Part shown: piece after piece, positions 37,563-63,826 of the stretch
Position numbering within the stretch: position 1 is the first letter of the stretch
Layout: every line of letters begins with the position of its first letter
From: an uncultured Candidatus Saccharibacteria bacterium
Lineage (GTDB): Bacteria > Patescibacteriota > Saccharimonadia > Saccharimonadales > Saccharimonadaceae
DNA length: 64,000 nt
Direction of reading: 5' to 3'
Assembly: GCA_964566735.1 (NCBI GenBank)
Contig: CAZMJB010000001.1
Location: forward strand, 21,516-85,515
The notes under the pieces: model-generated
What the model was told of the DNA's origin: nothing
Databases searched by the model: none
What the model saw: the letters and a program-made list of their open reading frames with translations, nothing else
Program-made: the position numbers and the translations under genes

Positions 37563-38180
37563 TTAGGAGTTCTGAACTAAGTCCCAAACATAATAATTTG
37601 TTTTGTCGGGTTGGTCTTCGATATATCCCTCAGGGTTAAAAGCCGATTCGGGTATAACGGTTTCGAATTTATAAAAGATGTAGGAACTTTCAAGACCTGG
37701 GTACGTATCGGGTGTGAGCACTTTCGCTGTAGAGCCATGTGATTGTACGGAGATTATTTCTTTAATGCCCAGCTCCTCTTCAAGCGCTCGCATAACGGCA
37801 ACTTCCGGTGCTTCATCCGCCTTTAACTTTTCACCTAAGGATGAATCAAGCGTGCGACGCTTTATGTTGTCTTCGCGTCCGTCTTTGAATTCTTGACGAT
37901 CTTCTCTGAGGCGATACACGTCGCCATTCGATAGTTCGCAAAACACATCCACCCATACAACGCGGAGTTCTCGAAGGATTTCACCATTCGACTTTACTGT
38001 AATAGTTGATTCACCCTCGTGAATTTCGTCGAGAAGGTTCTCAATGGTCTTTGCGGGCCCCATACCAAAGCGGTCAACATGGACGCCGCCACGGCGTAAA
38101 GCCGTTTTGAGCTGTTGAACCGTTGTACGCTCGTCGAAAACCACCCCTTGTTCTAATTGTGAGAACTCGGGGTTTGTCAT
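37563..38180 (-). CDS. NUDIX-like hydrolase
   Basis: The start is moved to MTNPEF, directly after the rmuC stop. The Nudix-box-like stretch is GEKLKADEAPEVAVMRALEEELGI. Confidence 0.5.
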   Translation of the reverse strand: MTNPEFSQLEQGVVFDERTTVQQLKTALRRGGVHVDRFGMGPAKTIENLLDEIHEGESTITVKSNGEILRELRVVWVDVFCELSNGDVYRLREDRQEFKDGREDNIKRRTLDSSLGEKLKADEAPEVAVMRALEEELGIKEIISVQSHGSTAKVLTPDTYPGLESSYIFYKFETVIPESAFNPEGYIEDQPDKTNYYVWDLVQNS

Positions 38181-38181
38181 G

Positions 38182-39255
38182 CTACAGCTCGTCCTGCTGT
38201 GGTTTATCAATAAGCAGCGGCTCTATACTTTTGTTGGTGCCGGCGATCTTGGTAACGTCGGTATCGACCTTCGCGAGTTCCTTATGGGCATTGTTGTAGT
38301 GCCCCACGGTTGTCCCAAGTGACTTTCCGAGTTTTTCCATGAAGCTATCAAACGCTGCAATGTGTCGGCCGAGCTTTCCAACTTGGACCTGGATGTCTTT
38401 GGCTTGCTCTTCAATTTGAAGACTACGAAGTCCTTGGAGGACGGTTTGTAGGTAGGCCATAAAGCTGGTTGGACTCACGATAACCACCTTTTTTTCGCGG
38501 AAGGCGTATTCAATAAGGTCGCGGGCGCTCGAGCCAGTTCCAACGTCGCCGATAAGTAGGTCGTAATACAGTGATTCGCTTGGAATAAACATGAAGGCAA
38601 AGTCCATAGTACCTTCGGCTGGGCGGATGTATTTACTGGTTTCGTCGATACGACCCTTAAGGTCGTTACGGACTTTTTTGAGCCATTCTTCACGCTCGCT
38701 TTTGGTTTGTGAAGCAACCATACGGTTATAGTTTTCAAGGCTAAACTTGCTGTCAACTGGGAGGATCTGGCCTTTATCGAGGAACACCACCGCATCGGCA
38801 ATGACACCGTCGCGGAAGCTATACTGCATTTTGAAGTTCTTGACCGGCAAAATATTGGCAAGGACAGATTCAAGGTAGTATTCACCAAAGACACCGCGTT
38901 GCTTTGGATTCTGCAGCACGTTTTGAAGGGTCTTAAGTTCATCCGCTACATCAACGACTCGGCGGTTAGTTTCGTCGAGCTTGGTGAGACGCTGCGATAC
39001 ATCGCCCACCAGCTTCATACTTTCGGTGAGCTGTTTTTGCATTGAACTCTGCATATTGGTTGCGTTGCGTTCAAGCTTGTCGCCAAGGTTTGTCTGAAGC
39101 GCCGCAATGGTGCGGTTAAGTTCAGTAACGTCCGCTTTCAAAAGCTCGACGCCGCCCGTTTGCTTTAAATCACGAAGACGCTGCGTAATAACAAAGAGCG
39201 CAGCGCCCATGCCGGCAATAGCCAGCACTAAAAGAATTATGACCACCATTTCCAT
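38182..39255 (-). CDS. rmuC: DNA recombination protein RmuC
   Basis: 357 aa with an N-terminal TM helix, a coiled coil and a C-terminal RmuC nuclease-like region (DFAFMFIPSESLYYDL). Confidence 0.85.
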   Translation of the reverse strand: MEMVVIILLVLAIAGMGAALFVITQRLRDLKQTGGVELLKADVTELNRTIAALQTNLGDKLERNATNMQSSMQKQLTESMKLVGDVSQRLTKLDETNRRVVDVADELKTLQNVLQNPKQRGVFGEYYLESVLANILPVKNFKMQYSFRDGVIADAVVFLDKGQILPVDSKFSLENYNRMVASQTKSEREEWLKKVRNDLKGRIDETSKYIRPAEGTMDFAFMFIPSESLYYDLLIGDVGTGSSARDLIEYAFREKKVVIVSPTSFMAYLQTVLQGLRSLQIEEQAKDIQVQVGKLGRHIAAFDSFMEKLGKSLGTTVGHYNNAHKELAKVDTDVTKIAGTNKSIEPLLIDKPQQDEL

Positions 39256-44436: not shown

Positions 44437-44473
44437 AAAGAAAAAGCAGGCATAAAACCTGCTTTTTCTTTGG
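44435..44473. terminator. Bidirectional intrinsic terminator directly after tRNA-Gln
   Basis: A perfect 16-bp stem, CCAAAGAAAAAGCAGG, loop cataaaa, CCTGCTTTTTCTTTGG. It overlaps the encoded CCA of the tRNA. Confidence 0.7.
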
Positions 44474-44545
44474 CTAGGGTGGAGGGATTCGAACCCCCGA
44501 ATGCCAGGACCAAAACCTGGTGCCTTACCACTTGGCGACACCCTA
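44471..44545 (-). tRNA. tRNA-Gln (anticodon UUG), CCA encoded
   Basis: Manual cloverleaf: acceptor TAGGGTG/CACCCTA, anticodon arm CCAGG-TTTTGGT-CCTGG, T arm GGGGG-TTCGAAT-CCCTC, discriminator G, CCA. Confidence 0.9.
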
Positions 44546-49045: not shown

Positions 49046-49750
49046 CTAGGCCTGGTAGGTTTTCAGTGCAGCTTTCGCAGCTTCTTGCTGAGCAGCCTGC
49101 TTGCTTGGGCCAACACCTTGGCTTACGAGGCGATCACCGGCATAAACGCCGAGGGTGAATACCTTGTCATGATCTGGGCCAACTTCTTCAATAACAATGT
49201 AGCGAGGAGTAACCCCATCTACCTTTTGCATCACTTCCTGGAGGTGTGACTTAGGGTCGCGCCATGAACCTTCCTTCAAAATGTTGTCGAGCTTTGAAGT
49301 AATGTGCTTCGTAATAAATACTTCGGCGTCCGCGTAGCCACGCTCGAGGTAAATCGCACCAATCAGTGCCTCAAAGGCATTAGCAAGAATCTGTAGACGT
49401 GCACGCTCACTCCCCTGCTTCTCCCCACGGCTCATGCGAACAAGTGGTTCGTAGCCCAGCAGCTGCCCAGCAGCACCAATACTTTCGGTGCGCACAAGCG
49501 CCGCCCGCCAGCTTGTCAAAATACCTTCGGCTTCTTCATAATTGCGGAACAAAAAATCGGTTACAACAAGCTCAAGCACGGCGTCACCAAGGAACTCAAG
49601 TCGCTCGTTGTGCGCCGATACGCTTTTACGGTGTTCGTTTACATAACTACGATGTGTAAGCGCCGTGACAAGAAGGTCAATATTTTGAAACTCAAACCCA
49701 AGCTTCTCTCGAGCAAAATCTTGGTACGGAGCTGTTTGCATCCCACTCAT
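49046..49750 (-). CDS. rnc: Ribonuclease III
   Basis: The signature NERLEFLGDAVLE is present, with a C-terminal dsRBD. Confidence 0.95.
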   Translation of the reverse strand: MSGMQTAPYQDFAREKLGFEFQNIDLLVTALTHRSYVNEHRKSVSAHNERLEFLGDAVLELVVTDFLFRNYEEAEGILTSWRAALVRTESIGAAGQLLGYEPLVRMSRGEKQGSERARLQILANAFEALIGAIYLERGYADAEVFITKHITSKLDNILKEGSWRDPKSHLQEVMQKVDGVTPRYIVIEEVGPDHDKVFTLGVYAGDRLVSQGVGPSKQAAQQEAAKAALKTYQA

Positions 49751-50241
49751 TACAAGTTCTCCTGCCGAATGCGCTTCATCGCAAGCAGCATTAATTTACC
49801 GATGTCTTCATATTCAATTGCATCCAAAGCATCGTGGAATGGGAACCATTGAATACCATTCATCCATTCTTCTTTTTGAATCGCGTTGGTATCACCCTTT
49901 GCGCGTACAAGGTAAATTTGGGTAGTCATAAGCACCAGCTTATCGACTCGGCGGTAACGGAAATGAATTTTACCGAGCCAGCCAAGAAGATCAACTTCTT
50001 TTAGGCCAGCCTCTTCGCCAATCTCGCGGCGAGCGGTTTGTTGCGCAGTTTCACCTTCTTCAATGTGCCCCTTAGGTATCGTCCAGCGGTCTTTTGCGTC
50101 CTGAATCAGCAGGATCTCTACGCCTTTTGCGCCATGGCGAAAGACAATCCCACCTGCGGTCGGTTCACGGACAATTTCTTGAATAGATGGTTTTTTGCGC
50201 GAAAAGTATTTCTTAAACTTATCGAACTGTGGTGTCGCCAT
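49750..50241 (-). CDS. NUDIX hydrolase
   Basis: The Nudix box is GHIEEGETAQQTARREIGEEAGL. Confidence 0.85.
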   Translation of the reverse strand: MATPQFDKFKKYFSRKKPSIQEIVREPTAGGIVFRHGAKGVEILLIQDAKDRWTIPKGHIEEGETAQQTARREIGEEAGLKEVDLLGWLGKIHFRYRRVDKLVLMTTQIYLVRAKGDTNAIQKEEWMNGIQWFPFHDALDAIEYEDIGKLMLLAMKRIRQENL

Positions 50242-50680
50242 TCTCGGCTCCCTCTACAAGTGTGCGGTACGCGGTACCAAGTACCCCGTTTACAAACTTG
50301 CTCGAGTTATCGGAACCAAACGCTTTTGCGAGCTCGACGGCTTCGTTAATTGCTACCTTTGGTGGAACAATGTCTGCCTGGTGCAGAAGTTCATAGACAC
50401 CAATACGAAGGATGTTACGGTCGACACGAGCGATCTGCTCGATAGGCCAGTCTGGTGCAATTGGCTGAATCTTGCCATCAATAGCTTGTTGTTCTTTTAG
50501 AACACCAGCTACGAGGGAATCGACAAACTCTGTGTCATCAATCGCGGTTTCGTATCGCTCGAGATTGCGCGATAGAATTTCTTTAACATCAGCGGAATCG
50601 TCAGAAGACTCTTTACGGAATTCATATTCGTAAAGTGTTTGAAGTGCGACGATGCGGCCGAGATGACGATTAGATGCCAT
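50219..50680 (-). CDS. nusB: Transcription antitermination factor NusB
   Basis: 153 aa with RIVALQTLYEYEF and AINEAVELAKAFG. Confidence 0.9.
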   Translation of the reverse strand: MASNRHLGRIVALQTLYEYEFRKESSDDSADVKEILSRNLERYETAIDDTEFVDSLVAGVLKEQQAIDGKIQPIAPDWPIEQIARVDRNILRIGVYELLHQADIVPPKVAINEAVELAKAFGSDNSSKFVNGVLGTAYRTLVEGAENGDTTVR

Positions 50681-51066: not shown

Positions 51067-51615
51067 ATGCCAATAGAAGACGAATTTGACCCAAGTGAAG
51101 GAAGCCCCTTTATCAAAGGTGCCTCAACACTTGACCCAGAGATGGCGGCCAGGGCTCGGAGCCTCGTGCCCCCTGCGGCCGAAACGACGCAACCGACAAG
51201 AGAGCGCGTAAGCCTCACACCCCCTCCTCCACCTGTGGTCGAGCGTAATTCTGAACCCGAGAATATGCGCCTCAGGCTCACTCCTCGTGGACGACGCCTT
51301 GGCGCAGCGGTACTGGCGGGCGGCGTTACGGCCGCGGTTGCCGTAGGAGTTACGGCGGGAGCAAACGCTATCAATGCAGCGGAGACAGAAGCGCTTTTAT
51401 CATCACCGACTATTGAAGCGCACGTACAGCAAGGTGACGGACTGCAGAAACTTATTGAAGAGAATGTTCCAAGCGTCGCCTCTGGAGAGAGGGACTGGCG
51501 AGACGTTGCTGACGATATCAGTCAACTACCGCAGAATAGCGAGATTACCGAGCCGGGCTACGTCCTTATGCCAGGCGACACGGTCTCCATTCCTATTTAC
51601 GAATCAAATAAATAA
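51067..51615 (+). CDS. Membrane-anchored hypothetical protein
   Basis: 182 aa with a Pro-rich N-terminus and one TM helix (AAVLAGGVTAAVAVGVTAGA). The C-terminal domain ends YVLMPGDTVSIP. Confidence 0.55.
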   Translation: MPIEDEFDPSEGSPFIKGASTLDPEMAARARSLVPPAAETTQPTRERVSLTPPPPPVVERNSEPENMRLRLTPRGRRLGAAVLAGGVTAAVAVGVTAGANAINAAETEALLSSPTIEAHVQQGDGLQKLIEENVPSVASGERDWRDVADDISQLPQNSEITEPGYVLMPGDTVSIPIYESNK

Positions 51616-51655: not shown

Positions 51656-54544
51656 CTAAACTACCACACTTACAAGGCGCCCAGGTACGTAAATCACTTT
51701 CTTCGGTTCACCTTCGACAAAGCGCACAACATTTTCGTGTGCTAATGCCTGCTTTTTGATCTCTTCAGGGTCAGTATCTTTCGCTACCTGAATCTCACCA
51801 CGAAGCTTTCCGTTCACCTGAACAGCAATCGTAATGACGTCTTCAACAATCAGCGCCTCATCCCATACTGGCCAGCTACCATTTTGTACGAGCCCTTCGC
51901 CGCCAAGTTGCTCCCAAAGTTCGTTTGCCATGTGAGGCGCAAATGGCTCGACGAGTTGCACTAATGTCTTCAGCGCTTCTGGCCATGCATCTTCTGAATA
52001 GCCGTCAATCTTAAACTTATAGAGGTCGTTTACAAATTCCATCAACGCTGCGATTGCCGTGTTGAAGCTAAGGCGACGAATGTCATCGGTTACCTTGCGG
52101 ATCGTCTTGTGCTGCGCAACTCGAATCGCATCATCGTTTTTAGTGACATTCTTTTCAGCCGTCCCGTCGTATTGCTGGACGAGCGTCCAAATACGATTAA
52201 GGAATCGGTAAATACCCGCAATACCGCGTGAATCCCAGTTTGCATCAAGCTCAATAGGACCCATGAAGAGCAAGTAGGTGCGGAGTGCGTCGGCGCCGTA
52301 GCCCTGGTCAATAACAACCAGTGGGTCGATCACGTTACCCTTACTCTTACTCATCTTCGTACCATCTTCGGCATTAATGTAGCCGTGGTAGACGAGCTTC
52401 TTTACGGGTTCAGCAACATCAAGGAGCCCCATGTCTTTGAAGACATGTGACCAGAATCGTACGTACAGAAGGTGTGCAACCGCGTGGTCACCACCAACAT
52501 AGAAATCAACCGGGTTCCAGTAGTTTGCTTTCGCAGGCTCCCACGCCTGAGCGCTATTGTTCGGGTCGCTATAGCGAAGTAGGTACCAGCTTGAACATGC
52601 ATAACCGTCCATGGTGTCGGTTTCGCGCTTTGCAGGTTTGCCACACTCAGGACAGGTCGTATTTACCCATTCCGATGCATGTGCAAGCGTCGATTGGCCA
52701 TCACCCTTAGGCGCAAAGTCTTCAACCTCAGGAAGTACCACTGGTAGTTGGTCTTCGGGGACAGCAACTGCACCATGTTCTTCACAATGGATAATTGGAA
52801 TCGGCGCACCCCAGTAGCGCTGACGGCTAATGAGCCAGTCGCGCATTTTGAAGGTAGTTTTTGCAGCACCAAGGTTGTTTTCTTCGAGCCAGGTGACGAT
52901 TGCTTCGCGGGCTTCTGCGGTTTCTGTCCCACTAAAGTCACCCGAGTTTACCAAGATACCCTCACGTACTTCAGTGTCGATCGTCTTCCCCTCTAGGTAC
53001 GCTCGCCACATCCTTTCGTGATCGCTCCAGGTAAGCCGTGCTTCGACGTCTTCCTTCGCTACCCATTCAATACGGTGGAGCCCTTGCTCAATTTCACTTT
53101 CAACTTGAACGGTTGGGTCAATAACGACCTCATACGCCGCGCCATATGAAAGCTGGTTGCGATTCTTTCCAATGCGGTACGCGTAGGTTGCAGACTCTGG
53201 GCTCACCTTGTTAATGCTAACAATCGTCGTGTAGCCGGTTTCTTCCATAATTTCACGTCGAATAGCCGCTTCGGTTGATTCGTCTTCGGCATCAACACCG
53301 CCACCAGGGAAGTGGACTTGCAATACATTTTCTTTTTCTTCAATTTGAAGCAAGTATTTACCTTCTCCGTCGGTGATAATTGCATCAATAACAGGACGCT
53401 TCAAGGTTTCGACATCATCACGAAGCGCACCTTCGCCTGAAGTATGCACTTCGTAGTTTGCAACCACTTGGACGACTGGAAGCTTGTACTTTTCAGCAAA
53501 CGCAAGGTCGCGTTCGTCATGCGCCGGAACAGCCATAACCGCACCGGTGCCGTAGCCGCCAAGAACATAATCGGCTACCCAAATAGGCACCTTTTCACCA
53601 TTCAATGGGTTGATTGCGTATGACCCAGTAAAGACACCCGTCTTTTCCTTCGTGTCGTTCGTTCGCTCAATTTCAGACTTCTTAACAGCTTCTTTAATGT
53701 ACGCCTCGGTCGCTTCTTTAAAGTCACCTGTCGCAAGCTTCAATGACAAAGCGTGTTCAGGCGCAAGCACCACAAACGTCGCACCAAAAATGGTGTCTGG
53801 GCGGGTTGAAAATACCGTAATAACGTCATCGGAATCAGCAACCTTAAACTGAATTTCGGCGCCAACAGAGCGGCCGATCCAGTTGGTTTGTGCGGTCTTA
53901 ATTTTTTGCGGCCAATCAAGGCCATCAATGTCATCGAGCAGTTCATCTGCGTAGTCGGTAATCTTGAAGAACCATTGCTTCATTGATTTCTTTTCAACCA
54001 ATGAGCCACAGCGCCAACAGTGACCGCCTTCTACTTGCTCGTTGGCAAGCACAGTTTTATCAACCGGGCACCACCACTGCAAAGCCTCTTTTTGGTAAGC
54101 AAGGCCGCGCCTATAAAATTCAGTGAAGATCCACTGGGTCCATTTGTAATACTCAGGGTCACTGGTGTTAATTTCACGTGCCCAATCGATACTCGAGCCA
54201 ATTCGTTTAATCTGGTTTTTGAAGTTAGCGATAAACGTTTCAGTTGCGACAACCGGAGATGTATTGGTTTTAATCGCATAGTTTTCGGTCGGGAGGCCAA
54301 AAGCATCCCACCCCATTGGGTTTAATACATTATGACCGTGTTGGCGGTAAAAACGAGCAATCGCGTCAACAATTGAGTGCTCAAAAGCATGTCCTGTGTG
54401 CATACCAGCGCCGCTTGGATACGGGAACATTGGCGACACATACGTTTTTACGCGGGTGTCATTATCAAGTGCAGCAAAGGCTTGCTGCTCCTCCCAAATG
54501 TGTTGCCATTTGGGTTCTATTTCTGCCGGGTTGTATCGCCTCAT
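51656..54544 (-). CDS. leuS: Leucine-tRNA ligase carrying an inserted NUDIX domain
   Basis: The start is moved to MRRYNPAEIEPKWQ. HTGH and KMSKSKGN class I motifs are present. A ~165-aa insert lies between AHDERDLAFAEKYKLPVVQVV and GILVNSGDFSG and contains a perfect Nudix box, GVDAEDESTEAAIRREIMEETGY. Confidence 0.95.
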   Translation of the reverse strand: MRRYNPAEIEPKWQHIWEEQQAFAALDNDTRVKTYVSPMFPYPSGAGMHTGHAFEHSIVDAIARFYRQHGHNVLNPMGWDAFGLPTENYAIKTNTSPVVATETFIANFKNQIKRIGSSIDWAREINTSDPEYYKWTQWIFTEFYRRGLAYQKEALQWWCPVDKTVLANEQVEGGHCWRCGSLVEKKSMKQWFFKITDYADELLDDIDGLDWPQKIKTAQTNWIGRSVGAEIQFKVADSDDVITVFSTRPDTIFGATFVVLAPEHALSLKLATGDFKEATEAYIKEAVKKSEIERTNDTKEKTGVFTGSYAINPLNGEKVPIWVADYVLGGYGTGAVMAVPAHDERDLAFAEKYKLPVVQVVANYEVHTSGEGALRDDVETLKRPVIDAIITDGEGKYLLQIEEKENVLQVHFPGGGVDAEDESTEAAIRREIMEETGYTTIVSINKVSPESATYAYRIGKNRNQLSYGAAYEVVIDPTVQVESEIEQGLHRIEWVAKEDVEARLTWSDHERMWRAYLEGKTIDTEVREGILVNSGDFSGTETAEAREAIVTWLEENNLGAAKTTFKMRDWLISRQRYWGAPIPIIHCEEHGAVAVPEDQLPVVLPEVEDFAPKGDGQSTLAHASEWVNTTCPECGKPAKRETDTMDGYACSSWYLLRYSDPNNSAQAWEPAKANYWNPVDFYVGGDHAVAHLLYVRFWSHVFKDMGLLDVAEPVKKLVYHGYINAEDGTKMSKSKGNVIDPLVVIDQGYGADALRTYLLFMGPIELDANWDSRGIAGIYRFLNRIWTLVQQYDGTAEKNVTKNDDAIRVAQHKTIRKVTDDIRRLSFNTAIAALMEFVNDLYKFKIDGYSEDAWPEALKTLVQLVEPFAPHMANELWEQLGGEGLVQNGSWPVWDEALIVEDVITIAVQVNGKLRGEIQVAKDTDPEEIKKQALAHENVVRFVEGEPKKVIYVPGRLVSVVV

Positions 54545-54573
54545 AACAGAGTAAGTGTAGCACAAGAGGCGAC

Positions 54574-63739: not shown

Positions 63740-63826
63740 TGGTGCGCAGAGCGGGACTTGAACCCGCACGGCCGTGAAGCCAAGAGATTTTAAGTCTCTC
63801 GTGTCTACCAATTCCACCATCCGCGC
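63740..63826 (-). tRNA. tRNA-Leu (anticodon UAA), CCA encoded
   Basis: Manual cloverleaf: acceptor GCGCGGA/TCTGCGC, anticodon arm AGAGA-CTTAAAA-TCTCT, a long variable arm, T arm GCGGG-TTCAAGT-CCCGC, ACCA. Confidence 0.9.

What the first reader, a model, noticed from the sequence alone, without database searches (positions are those of the whole stretch)
52961..53461. Complete NUDIX hydrolase domain inserted into the editing region of LeuRS
Bacterial LeuRS normally has a short connector between AHD.RD..FA.KY.L and G.L.NSG.F.G, about 18 aa in the E. coli enzyme as I recall it. Here that connector is about 165 aa. It contains a textbook Nudix box, G-x5-E-x7-REUxEExGU, as GVDAEDESTEAAIRREIMEETGY. 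Nudix-fold-like flanks are also present (VIDAIITDGEGKYLLQ...; IEWVAKEDV). All catalytic Glu residues of the box are intact, so the domain looks functional rather than vestigial. A pyrophosphohydrolase embedded in an aminoacyl-tRNA synthetase could act on aminoacyl-adenylates, Ap4A-type by-products or alarmones. I am not aware of this architecture. The window encodes two further Nudix proteins, at 49750-50241 and 37563-38180.
Basis: partly seen in the sequence, partly recalled or inferred. Interest (0 to 1): 0.65.

Follow-up and report, generated by a model that had tools for sequence, protein, structure and literature searches.

The report
Nudix hydrolase domain inside LeuRS
The leucyl-tRNA synthetase of this Saccharibacteria-type (CPR) bacterium really does carry a complete, apparently active Nudix pyrophosphatase domain in a loop of its proofreading domain; the same fusion recurs in over a hundred sequence clusters of ultra-small bacteria, and I found no paper describing it.

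Summary
leuS (window 51656-54544, minus strand, 962 aa) has 166 residues (aa 362-527; 52964-53461) where insert-less relatives and Thermus LeuRS have a 13-17 residue loop of the CP1 editing domain. The insert passes Pfam's Nudix threshold and has a canonical Nudix box. It folds confidently as a Nudix domain (pLDDT 92.9). The LeuRS HIGH, KMSKS and editing motifs are intact.

It is not a mis-assembly. An independent contig spans both junctions, and 47 of the 120 closest LeuRS proteins have the same architecture.

- The same Nudix family is embedded in LeuRS in at least 109 of the 150 best 50%-identity clusters.
- It sits at five or more insertion points, with up to three copies per protein.
- The catalytic Glu residues are 98-100% conserved.
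- Relatives exist as free genes, one 2 nt upstream of leuS.
- Relatives also exist as stand-alone "CP1 + Nudix" proteins.
- CPR LeuRS also carries inserted Ham1/ITPase, HAD and alpha/beta-hydrolase domains.

Best reading: an active, house-cleaning-type nucleotide pyrophosphatase carried on LeuRS as a permissive scaffold. The substrate is unknown, and Ap4A clearing or tRNA-end roles remain possible. No paper describing this was found.

The parts
51656..54544 (-). leuS coding sequence, 962 aa counted from the ATG at 54544. The ORF stays open up to a TTG at 54565.
   Evidence: TIGR00396 scores 1002.6 bits against a cut-off of 548.4. The closest solved structures are bacterial LeuRS.
54389..54400 (-). 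HIGH signature (HTGH, aa 49-52) of the class I synthetic site. It is intact.
   Evidence: H49, G51 and H52 are invariant in alignment A2.
53462..53884 (-). N-terminal part of the CP1 editing domain (aa 221-361). It includes the Thr-rich motif STRPDT (53792-53809) and AHDERD with the conserved Asp residues (53507-53524).
   Evidence: Pfam PF13603 matches profile positions 2-146 of 185.
52964..53461 (-). Inserted segment of 166 aa (aa 362-527). It replaces a 13-17 residue CP1 loop.
   Evidence: The segment is a gap in 73 insert-less relatives. It replaces Thermus LeuRS residues 363-379.
53015..53401 (-). Nudix fold proper (Pfam PF00293 match, aa 382-510).
   Evidence: One search gives the Pfam match. 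The AlphaFold2 model of the insert has pLDDT 92.9. Foldseek matches Nudix structures at probability 1.0, with TM-scores up to 0.80 normalised by target length.
53231..53299 (-). Nudix box GVDAEDESTEAAIRREIMEETGY (aa 416-438). The putative metal-binding residues are E431, E434 and E435.
   Evidence: R, E, EE and G are invariant in 37 inserts. The Glu residues are 98-100% conserved in 162 instances.
52847..52963 (-). C-terminal part of the CP1 editing domain (aa 528-566, EGILVNSG...), which resumes directly after the insert.
52343..52357 (-). KMSKS signature (aa 730-734). It is intact.

Best explanation
Shown. The window's single leuS gene encodes a LeuRS that looks fully equipped, with HIGH, KMSKS and the editing Thr-rich and Asp motifs all intact. 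Its CP1 proofreading domain carries, in a loop, a complete Nudix domain. This domain belongs to a distinct Nudix family that is recurrently embedded in LeuRS. The family keeps the Mg-binding REx2EE glutamates almost without exception. It evolves about 6.5 times faster than the synthetase core but remains under purifying selection.

Inferred. The domain is an active Mg2+-dependent pyrophosphohydrolase working on a free nucleotide-type substrate. Candidates are a non-canonical (d)NTP, an NDP-X compound or a dinucleoside polyphosphate, that is, a 'house-cleaning' activity.

Inferred. LeuRS serves mainly as a permissive, constitutively expressed scaffold. It keeps this enzyme, and in other CPR lineages Ham1/ITPase, HAD phosphatase and alpha/beta-hydrolase domains, co-expressed and co-localised with the translation machinery of a minimal genome. 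The two active sites need not share a reaction cycle. Aminoacylation and editing proceed as in ordinary LeuRS.
For: -
- The fold is supported. The full-length model has pLDDT 85.3, with the Nudix part at 83-94.
- Conservation: the box residues are invariant across inserts that share only 21-30% identity. Across 162 instances, E69 is 99%, E72 98%, E73 100%, K98 98% and W132 96% conserved.
- Selection: insert dN is 0.37 against core dN 0.056, and insert pN is 0.29 against pS 0.84.
- Scaffold idea: the same family sits at five or more positions in LeuRS, with up to three copies. Copies cluster by site, which indicates old independent insertions.
- Further inserted hydrolases occur in the same LeuRS proteins: HAD_2, Ham1p_like (196 bits) and Ser_hydrolase.
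- House-cleaning context: a stand-alone CP1-Nudix gene lies between MazG, Ham1, NTPase_I-T, CYTH and another Nudix. A free-standing member lies with Nudix, a YfbR-like HD domain and inositol-P phosphatase.
- Function without a synthetase body: complete free-standing proteins of 143-200 aa and CP1-Nudix proteins of 270-291 aa exist.
Against: - No substrate is identified. The family reaches no curated NCBIfam Nudix equivalog; the best is RppH at 25 bits against a cut-off of 116.
- The association with LeuRS is strikingly specific. All 39 representatives of at least 900 aa are LeuRS. Most insertion points lie in or at the hinges of CP1. A pure scaffold model does not explain either fact.
- A free-standing member sits 2 nt upstream of leuS. 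Stand-alone proteins keep a degenerate CP1. Both hint at a real functional tie to CP1 or tRNA.
- The profile used was built from LeuRS inserts, so the LeuRS specificity is partly ascertainment.
- I could not obtain model coordinates, so the geometry relative to the editing and synthetic sites is unknown.
Confidence: 0.45

Rival explanations
1. By-product coupling. The Nudix domain clears adenine dinucleoside polyphosphates (Ap4A, Ap3A) or related side products that LeuRS itself makes from Leu-AMP plus ATP or ADP. It sits on the enzyme so that these are destroyed at the source.
For: - Ap4A hydrolase of Aquifex (3i7u) is the second-best structural match, with TM-score 0.76 normalised by target length.
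- A lupin Ap4A hydrolase and RppH/NudH are among the best sequence matches.
- A free-standing member lies in an apparent operon with leuS.
- Embedding appears exclusive to LeuRS.
- From general knowledge: aminoacyl-tRNA synthetases are the main source of Ap4A.
Against: - All similarities are generic, at about 19% identity and far below family cut-offs.
- Homologues work without a synthetase body and sit in unrelated contexts.
- Co-inserted Ham1, HAD and alpha/beta-hydrolase domains have nothing to do with Ap4A.
- From my own knowledge, not tested here: LeuRS is not among the strongest Ap4A producers.
Confidence: 0.2
2. tRNA- or RNA-end directed. CP1, which binds the tRNA 3' acceptor end, acts as the targeting module. 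The Nudix domain removes a pyrophosphate-linked group (cap, pyrophosphate or ADP-ribose-type adduct) from tRNA(Leu) or another RNA. This would be a repair or quality-control step.
For: - Most insertion points are in CP1 or at its two hinges.
- Stand-alone proteins consist of the whole CP1 plus Nudix. Their editing residues are degenerate (TRPDT to EYPEL, AHD to AHI), but the Nudix box is intact (Pfam).
- The weak best family matches are RNA pyrophosphohydrolases RppH and YtkD, and Dcp2.
- One free-standing member overlaps the 3' end of pth, next to hisS, fmt and truB.
- One CP1-Nudix gene lies in a conjugative-element accessory region.
Against: - Other insertion points lie outside CP1, at about q627-640.
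- Many free-standing members have no CP1.
- I know of no pyrophosphate-linked tRNA modification in these organisms.
- Nothing here tests RNA binding.
Confidence: 0.15
3. Non-catalytic insert. The Nudix fold is a structural or ligand-sensing module, like the Nudix domain of the regulator NrtR, which modulates LeuRS without hydrolysing anything.
For: - The Arg of the RE pair is replaced in about 16% of family members.
- The insert evolves much faster than the core.
Against: - The three box glutamates are 98-100% conserved over sequences down to about 20% identity.
- The window's own box is fully canonical.
Confidence: 0.05
4. Assembly chimera that joins a Nudix gene into leuS.
For: Read depth is low, about 5x, in the runs that hold the sequence.
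Against: - A Logan contig of an independent assembly spans 52709-54000 without a single difference.
- The reading frame is continuous.
- 47 of the 120 closest LeuRS proteins, from NCBI, JGI, ENA and Logan, have the same architecture.
- A syntenic locus carries it as well.
Confidence: 0.01

Closest known systems
Canonical bacterial LeuRS (Thermus thermophilus 1H3N/2BYT; E. coli 4AQ7)
   Same: The whole synthetase body matches: 804 bits to 1H3N and Foldseek TM-score 0.80 normalised by target length. HIGH, KMSKS, the Thr-rich motif and the Asp editing motifs are present. The CP1 editing domain (PF13603) is present.
   Different: 166 aa with a Nudix fold replace the Thermus loop 363-379. The leucine-specific domain of Thermus (about residues 580-635) has no counterpart. 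No solved LeuRS contains a Nudix domain.
Nudix (di)nucleoside polyphosphate and RNA pyrophosphohydrolases (RppH/NudH; Aquifex Ap4A hydrolase 3I7U; NudI; MutT)
   Same: The Nudix box and the alpha/beta/alpha fold match. These are the best, though weak, sequence and structure matches.
   Different: Identity is about 19%. Scores are far below every curated cut-off, for example RppH at 25.5 bits against 116 and MutT at 19 against 148. The family has its own conserved R23, K98 and W132 and an N-terminal strand. It occurs embedded in another enzyme.
Other bifunctional fusions of an adenylyl-transfer enzyme with an accessory enzyme domain: NadM-Nudix (NMN adenylyltransferase / ADP-ribose pyrophosphatase, NCBIfam NF003790) and IleRS with a GNAT domain (NCBIfam NF040702)
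   Same: They are precedents for a Nudix domain fused to a nucleotidyl-transfer enzyme, and for a class I aaRS that carries an unrelated enzyme domain. Both names appear in the NCBIfam lists.
   Different: They involve different partner enzymes and different topology. I did not examine those proteins here, so the comparison rests on their curated names only.
Free-standing editing-domain paralogues (trans-editing factors such as AlaX and YbaK/ProX; from my own knowledge)
   Same: The 270-291 aa CP1 + Nudix proteins found here are stand-alone copies of an aaRS editing domain.
   Different: They derive from LeuRS CP1. Most have lost the editing residues, and they carry a Nudix domain. They are relatives of the window's insert, not the window's own protein.

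Membership tests
Nudix hydrolase superfamily (PF00293) | Score above the Pfam gathering threshold | tested here: met
   48.7 bits in the full protein and 52.9 bits for the excised segment, against a threshold of 21.1.
Nudix hydrolase superfamily (PF00293) | Nudix box G-x5-E-x7-R-E-U-x-E-E-x-G-U | tested here: met
   GVDAEDESTEAAIRREIMEETGY is an exact regex match. RE, EE and G are invariant in 37 inserts.
Nudix hydrolase superfamily (PF00293) | Alpha/beta/alpha sandwich fold with the box on a loop-helix-loop | tested here: met
   The AlphaFold2 model has pLDDT 92.9, and helix 65-77 covers the box. Foldseek finds 420 PDB matches at E <= 0.001, and the 50 best listed are all Nudix proteins. This is a prediction only.
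Nudix hydrolase superfamily (PF00293) | Mg2+/Mn2+-dependent hydrolysis of a nucleoside diphosphate linked to X | not testable with these tools
   This needs enzyme assays.
Bacterial leucyl-tRNA synthetase (TIGR00396 leuS_bact) | Score above the curated equivalog cut-off | tested here: met
   1002.6 bits against a cut-off of 548.4.
Bacterial leucyl-tRNA synthetase (TIGR00396 leuS_bact) | HIGH and KMSKS class I signatures, and a CP1 editing domain with the Thr-rich motif and conserved Asp | tested here: met
   HTGH at aa 49-52, KMSKS at 730-734, STRPDT at 246-251 and AHDERD at 341-346. PF13603 scores 216 bits.
RppH/NudH RNA pyrophosphohydrolase - Ap(n)A hydrolase (NCBIfam PRK00714 models) | Score above the curated equivalog cut-off | tested here: not met
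   25.5 bits against a cut-off of 116. No member of A1 or A3 comes near the cut-off.
MutT 8-oxo-dGTPase (PRK10776 / TIGR00586) | Score above the curated equivalog cut-off | tested here: not met
   19.1 bits against 148, and 18.1 against 97.9.
Nudix Ap4A hydrolase subfamily | Subfamily-specific residues downstream of the box, such as the conserved Tyr about 17 residues after it (from my own recollection of the literature) | tested here: inconclusive
   The window has Y at +16 and +18 after the box (SATYAYR). That column holds Y, F, H or G in other inserts. The structural match to 3i7u is generic at 19% identity.

The most novel reading that the evidence does not exclude
CP1 + Nudix is a functional unit in its own right. 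The LeuRS editing-domain fold targets the acceptor end of tRNA(Leu), or a nucleotide that mimics it. The Nudix site then removes a pyrophosphate-linked group from it. This would be a previously unknown tRNA repair, quality-control or anti-toxin activity. It is built into LeuRS in CPR bacteria. It is also mobilised as a stand-alone 270-290 aa protein, for example on conjugative elements of Bacteroidales-type genomes.
Probability: 0.12. Interest if true: 0.9.

Novelty: new variant of a known kind. Interest (0 to 1): 0.7.

Why it matters
Aminoacyl-tRNA synthetases of bacteria are usually thought of as architecturally conservative. Here an unrelated, apparently active hydrolase has been inserted into the proofreading domain of an essential synthetase. 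This has happened repeatedly, at several positions and in up to three copies, across the Candidate Phyla Radiation. Other small hydrolases (ITPase, HAD, alpha/beta-hydrolase) are inserted alongside it.

If the Nudix activity is coupled to LeuRS or tRNA, this is a new layer of translational quality control. If it is not, it shows how minimal genomes pack 'house-cleaning' enzymes onto essential proteins.

Either way, three things follow:
- It defines an uncharacterised Nudix family.
- It reveals stand-alone LeuRS-CP1-derived proteins.
- It explains mis-annotations, such as a 168-aa Nudix protein named 'leuS' in a public record.

Tried and rejected
- **Insert-only homology search.** Searching the insert alone in the word-indexed protein collection found nothing. 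This was a limitation of the index, since the full-length search then found dozens of insert-bearing relatives.
- **Neighbouring Nudix as donor.** I tested whether the nusB-adjacent Nudix gene (49750-50241) donated the insert. I rejected this: it scores only 24 bits against the insert profile, and it is also present in the insert-less syntenic locus.
- **"Polymorphic among close relatives".** I rejected this reading. Synonymous sites are saturated (pS 0.67-0.74), so the 90%-identical cores are old lineages. The NJ tree of the core is too poorly resolved to count gains and losses.
- **Core residues associated with the insert.** The search for them was confounded by phylogeny and gave nothing usable.
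- **Geometry.** The predicted coordinates are not exposed, so I could not measure distances between the Nudix cleft and the editing or synthetic sites.
- **Expression.** No RNA runs were found.
- **Defence link.** PADLOC gave only a weak hit to a candidate Nudix model, at most 27.6 bits.
- **Literature.** Six full-text searches and two papers read found no description of a LeuRS-Nudix fusion. The library does not cover subscription journals.
- **Mobile-element or intein-like origin.** I saw no supporting feature. GC content in the insert (0.47-0.52) is like that of the rest of the gene.
Full report
**Observation.** The region lies inside one long ORF on the minus strand, 51656..54565.
- NCBIfam identifies it as bacterial leucyl-tRNA synthetase: TIGR00396 at 1002.6 bits against a cut-off of 548.4.
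- The likely start is the ATG at 54544, giving 962 aa. All protein numbers below use that start.
- Pfam finds the LeuRS editing domain PF13603 only up to profile position 146 of 185. It then finds a NUDIX domain, PF00293, at 48.7 bits against a gathering score of 21.1. The excised segment alone gives E = 4.9e-14.
- The canonical Nudix box is present as GVDAEDESTEAAIRREIMEETGY, aa 416-438, window 53231-53299.

**Boundaries and state of the host enzyme.** I aligned the 120 closest LeuRS proteins.
- 73 proteins of about 808 aa have a gap exactly where the window protein has aa 362-527, which is 52964-53461.
- Those proteins read '...LPIIEVVEKPGDTPEQVFHGEGTLINSG...'. The window protein reads '...LPVVQVV[166 aa]EGILVNSG...'.
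- Against Thermus thermophilus LeuRS (1H3N), the insert replaces residues 363-379, a 17-residue stretch within the editing domain.
- The synthetase looks complete. HTGH (aa 49-52), KMSKS (730-734), the editing Thr-rich motif STRPDT (246-251) and AHDERD with the conserved aspartates (341-346) are all intact.
- In passing: the protein has no counterpart of the Thermus leucine-specific domain, about residues 580-635.

**Fold.**
- AlphaFold2 on the insert with 37 homologous inserts gives pLDDT 92.9 and pTM 0.86, with a helix over the Nudix box.
- Foldseek against the PDB returns Nudix proteins throughout the 50 matches listed. The top matches are 2azw, the Aquifex Ap4A hydrolase 3i7u, YmfB and NudI. 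Probability is 1.0, TM-scores reach 0.80 normalised by target length, and identity is about 19%.
- The full-length model has mean pLDDT 85.3, with the Nudix blocks at 83-94. Overall it matches bacterial LeuRS structures, none of which contains a Nudix domain.
- Coordinates are not exposed. The orientation of the Nudix cleft relative to the editing and synthetic sites therefore remains unknown.

**Not an artefact.**
- In run X1, a contig from an independent assembler covers 52709-54000 with no differences. It spans both junctions, though depth is only about 5x.
- 47 of the 120 closest LeuRS proteins carry PF00293 at the same place. They come from NCBI, JGI, ENA and Logan assemblies.
- The locus of the 86%-identical P0002 has the same genes in the same order: Mur ligase, unknown, leuS, unknown, small ORF, nusB, Nudix-163, rnc, rpsP. 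So does the locus of the insert-less P0013. The only difference is the insert.

**Evolution within Saccharibacteria.**
- The closest named relative is LeuRS of 'Candidatus Saccharibacteria bacterium 49-20'. The runs that hold the sequence are labelled metagenome or soil metagenome.
- Three insert types occupy the same site: A (the window's type), B and C. A shares only 21-30% identity with B and C.
- Even so, F53, G56, G57, R71, E72, E75, E76, G78, K101, E125 and W135 (alignment A1 numbering) are invariant.
- Between the window and P0002, the core has dN 0.056 and the insert has dN 0.37. Synonymous sites are saturated, with pS 0.74-0.84.
- The insert therefore evolves about 6.5 times faster than the very constrained core, but it is clearly under purifying selection. 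These '90% identical' LeuRS proteins belong to old lineages.
- The NJ tree of the core intermixes insert types and insert-less forms on very short internal branches. I cannot say how many gains or losses occurred.

**The wider phenomenon.**
- A profile of the inserts was searched against 1.84 billion cluster representatives. It finds 411 clusters at E <= 1e-10.
- Of the best 150, 109 contain LeuRS segments around the Nudix match. All 39 representatives of at least 900 aa score at least 445 bits against the window LeuRS.
- The commonest position is the window's CP1 loop, with 98 instances.
- The same family also sits at about q212 (often as a tandem pair), at the N-terminal CP1 hinge (about q236-241), at about q590, and at about q627-640.
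- Some proteins have two or three Nudix domains. Pfam confirms this for P0125, P0130, P0132 and P0139.
- Copies at a given site resemble copies at the same site in other proteins (0.56-0.66 identity). Copies within one protein share only 0.19-0.44 identity. This indicates old, separate insertions.
- Over 162 domain instances, the three box glutamates are 98-100% conserved, K98 98%, W132 96% and R23 91%.
- In a scan of species-representative genomes, 57 of the 80 best loci are LeuRS genes with the insert.
  - Their record titles include Saccharibacteria, Magasanikbacteria, Paceibacterota, Berkelbacteria, Moraniibacteriota, Taylorbacteria and Minisyncoccia.
  - A few bins are labelled Tenericutes or Bacilli, or Woese-/Pacearchaeota.
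  - Some labels are probably mis-binned (Gammaproteobacteria, Muribaculaceae).
  - I did not verify the taxonomic labels.

**Relatives outside LeuRS.** There are two kinds.
- Complete free-standing proteins of 143-200 aa share the family's N-terminal strand and conserved residues. They are 41-45% identical to type C inserts.
  - One lies 579 nt upstream of an insert-less leuS.
  - Its orthologue lies 2 nt upstream of a leuS that also carries an insert.
  - One overlaps the end of pth, next to hisS, fmt and truB.
  - One sits among Nudix, a YfbR-like HD domain, inositol-phosphatase and PNPOx genes.
  - Others are in unrelated contexts.
- Proteins of 270-291 aa consist of the entire CP1 domain with the embedded Nudix and nothing else.
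  - In most of them the editing residues are lost (TRPDT to EYPEL, AHD to AHI), while REVxEETGY is intact.
  - One such gene lies in a run of house-cleaning genes: NTPase_I-T, Ham1, CYTH, MazG, Nudix, Ham1.
  - Another lies in a conjugative-element-like region with PcfJ, PcfK and KilA-N.
- The window's own neighbouring Nudix gene (49750-50241) belongs to a different family.

**Other passengers on LeuRS.** The Nudix-bearing CPR LeuRS proteins often have further inserts of 130-210 aa. Pfam identifies them as follows:
- HAD_2 in L009, directly after the Nudix in the same CP1 loop, and in L049.
- Ham1p_like ITPase in L076 at 196 bits, and weakly in L006.
- Ser_hydrolase alpha/beta-hydrolase in L003, L006, L038 and L049. 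L040 has a look-alike segment that I did not scan.
- One unidentified segment in L044.

**Mechanism.**
- Shown: a complete LeuRS plus a conserved, canonical Nudix module in a CP1 loop.
- Inferred: the module is catalytically active.
- I commit, at 0.45, to the reading that it is a house-cleaning-type nucleotide pyrophosphatase and that LeuRS is mainly a permissive, constitutively expressed scaffold. Four findings support this:
  - The family works without a synthetase body.
  - It sits at several positions and in several copies.
  - It is accompanied by other small hydrolases, two of which (Nudix and Ham1) are classical nucleotide-pool sanitising enzymes.
  - Its stand-alone relatives lie in house-cleaning clusters.
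- This reading does not explain the apparent specificity for LeuRS and for CP1 and its hinges, the leuS-adjacent free gene, or the retention of a degenerate CP1 in the stand-alone proteins.
- Those facts keep two rivals alive. One is clearing of Ap(n)A-type by-products of LeuRS (0.2). The other is an activity directed at the tRNA or RNA end with CP1 as the targeting module (0.15).
- A non-catalytic role is unlikely (0.05), and an artefact is excluded in practice (0.01).
- The substrate cannot be named from sequence. Every curated Nudix equivalog is missed by a wide margin. The most frequent weak matches are RppH, NudI, YfcD, YtkD and NudB.

**Comparison with what is known, and novelty.**
- The protein is a member of bacterial LeuRS and of the Nudix superfamily by every feature I could test.
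- It is not a member of RppH, MutT or any other curated Nudix family.
- Six full-text searches and two papers checked found no description of a LeuRS-Nudix fusion, nor of LeuRS as a carrier of hydrolase domains in CPR. The library lacks most subscription journals, so absence is not proven.
- The sequences themselves are in public databases, annotated simply as leucine--tRNA ligase. One free-standing Nudix is even named 'leuS'.
- I rate it a new variant of a known kind, of real interest to people who work on aaRS and on CPR biology. The decisive experiments are ordinary enzymology and a structure.

Noticed in passing
L009, L049, L076, L006, L038, L003, L040, L044 (LeuRS ORFs around the match; segments listed): CPR LeuRS proteins that carry the Nudix also carry other inserted domains. 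HAD_2 is in L009 and L049. Ham1/ITPase is in L076 (196 bits) and weakly in L006. Ser_hydrolase alpha/beta-hydrolase is in L003, L006, L038 and L049; L040 has a look-alike segment that was not scanned. An unidentified segment of about 130 aa is in L044. LeuRS seems to be a hotspot for enzyme-domain insertion.
   Followed up: partly
P0302-P0337, e.g. P0323 (L084 7001-7876) and P0318 (L086 7001-7828): Stand-alone proteins of 270-291 aa consist of a whole LeuRS CP1 editing domain with an embedded Nudix. In most, the editing residues are degenerate. One lies in a house-cleaning gene cluster and one in a conjugative-element-like region. The P0325 cluster has 436 member sequences.
   Followed up: partly
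P0124, P0125, P0137 (cluster representatives); L049 (Taylorbacteria, 1735-aa ORF): These LeuRS proteins have three Nudix domains: a tandem pair at about q212 plus one in the CP1 loop. The L049 ORF additionally has Ser_hydrolase and HAD inserts.
   Followed up: partly
window 51656-54544 (aa about 725-729): The window LeuRS, and its 808-aa relatives, have no counterpart of the Thermus leucine-specific domain (Thermus residues about 580-635).
   Followed up: no
window 49750-50241 (-) and 50219-50680 (-): A 163-aa Nudix gene overlaps the end of nusB by 23 nt and is followed by rnc. The nusB-Nudix-rnc-rpsP order is conserved in L081 and L082. This Nudix belongs to a different family from the LeuRS insert.
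   Followed up: partly
It has a box-like 'MRALEEELGI'. The ORF ends at 38210, not 38180.
   Followed up: partly
window 52628-52800: One short contig of run X2, a related strain, joins 52628 to 52800. It skips 171 nt, which is 57 codons in frame, covering about aa 583-639 and the CxxC...CPEC zinc-knuckle region of LeuRS. Only 22 nt support one side, so the evidence is weak.
   Followed up: no
window 63740-63826 (-) and 44471-44545 (-): tRNA-Leu(UAA) and tRNA-Gln(UUG) genes. No other Rfam family reaches its gathering threshold in the window.
   Followed up: no
window 51067-51615 (+): A 182-aa Pro/Ala-rich ORF lies between leuS and nusB, on the opposite strand, in a locally GC-rich stretch (0.59). 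A gene of similar size sits at the same place in L081 and L082. It has no Pfam family on record.
   Followed up: no
P0284 (L090 2563-3069): A free-standing 168-aa Nudix of this family is named 'leuS' in its NCBI record (Candidatus Taylorbacteria). The name was presumably transferred from insert-bearing LeuRS proteins.
   Followed up: no
L022, L047, L048: Contigs whose record titles say Woesearchaeota, Methanosarcinales or Pacearchaeota encode bacterial-type LeuRS with the Nudix at the same site. The cause is either transfer into DPANN archaea or mis-binning.
   Followed up: no
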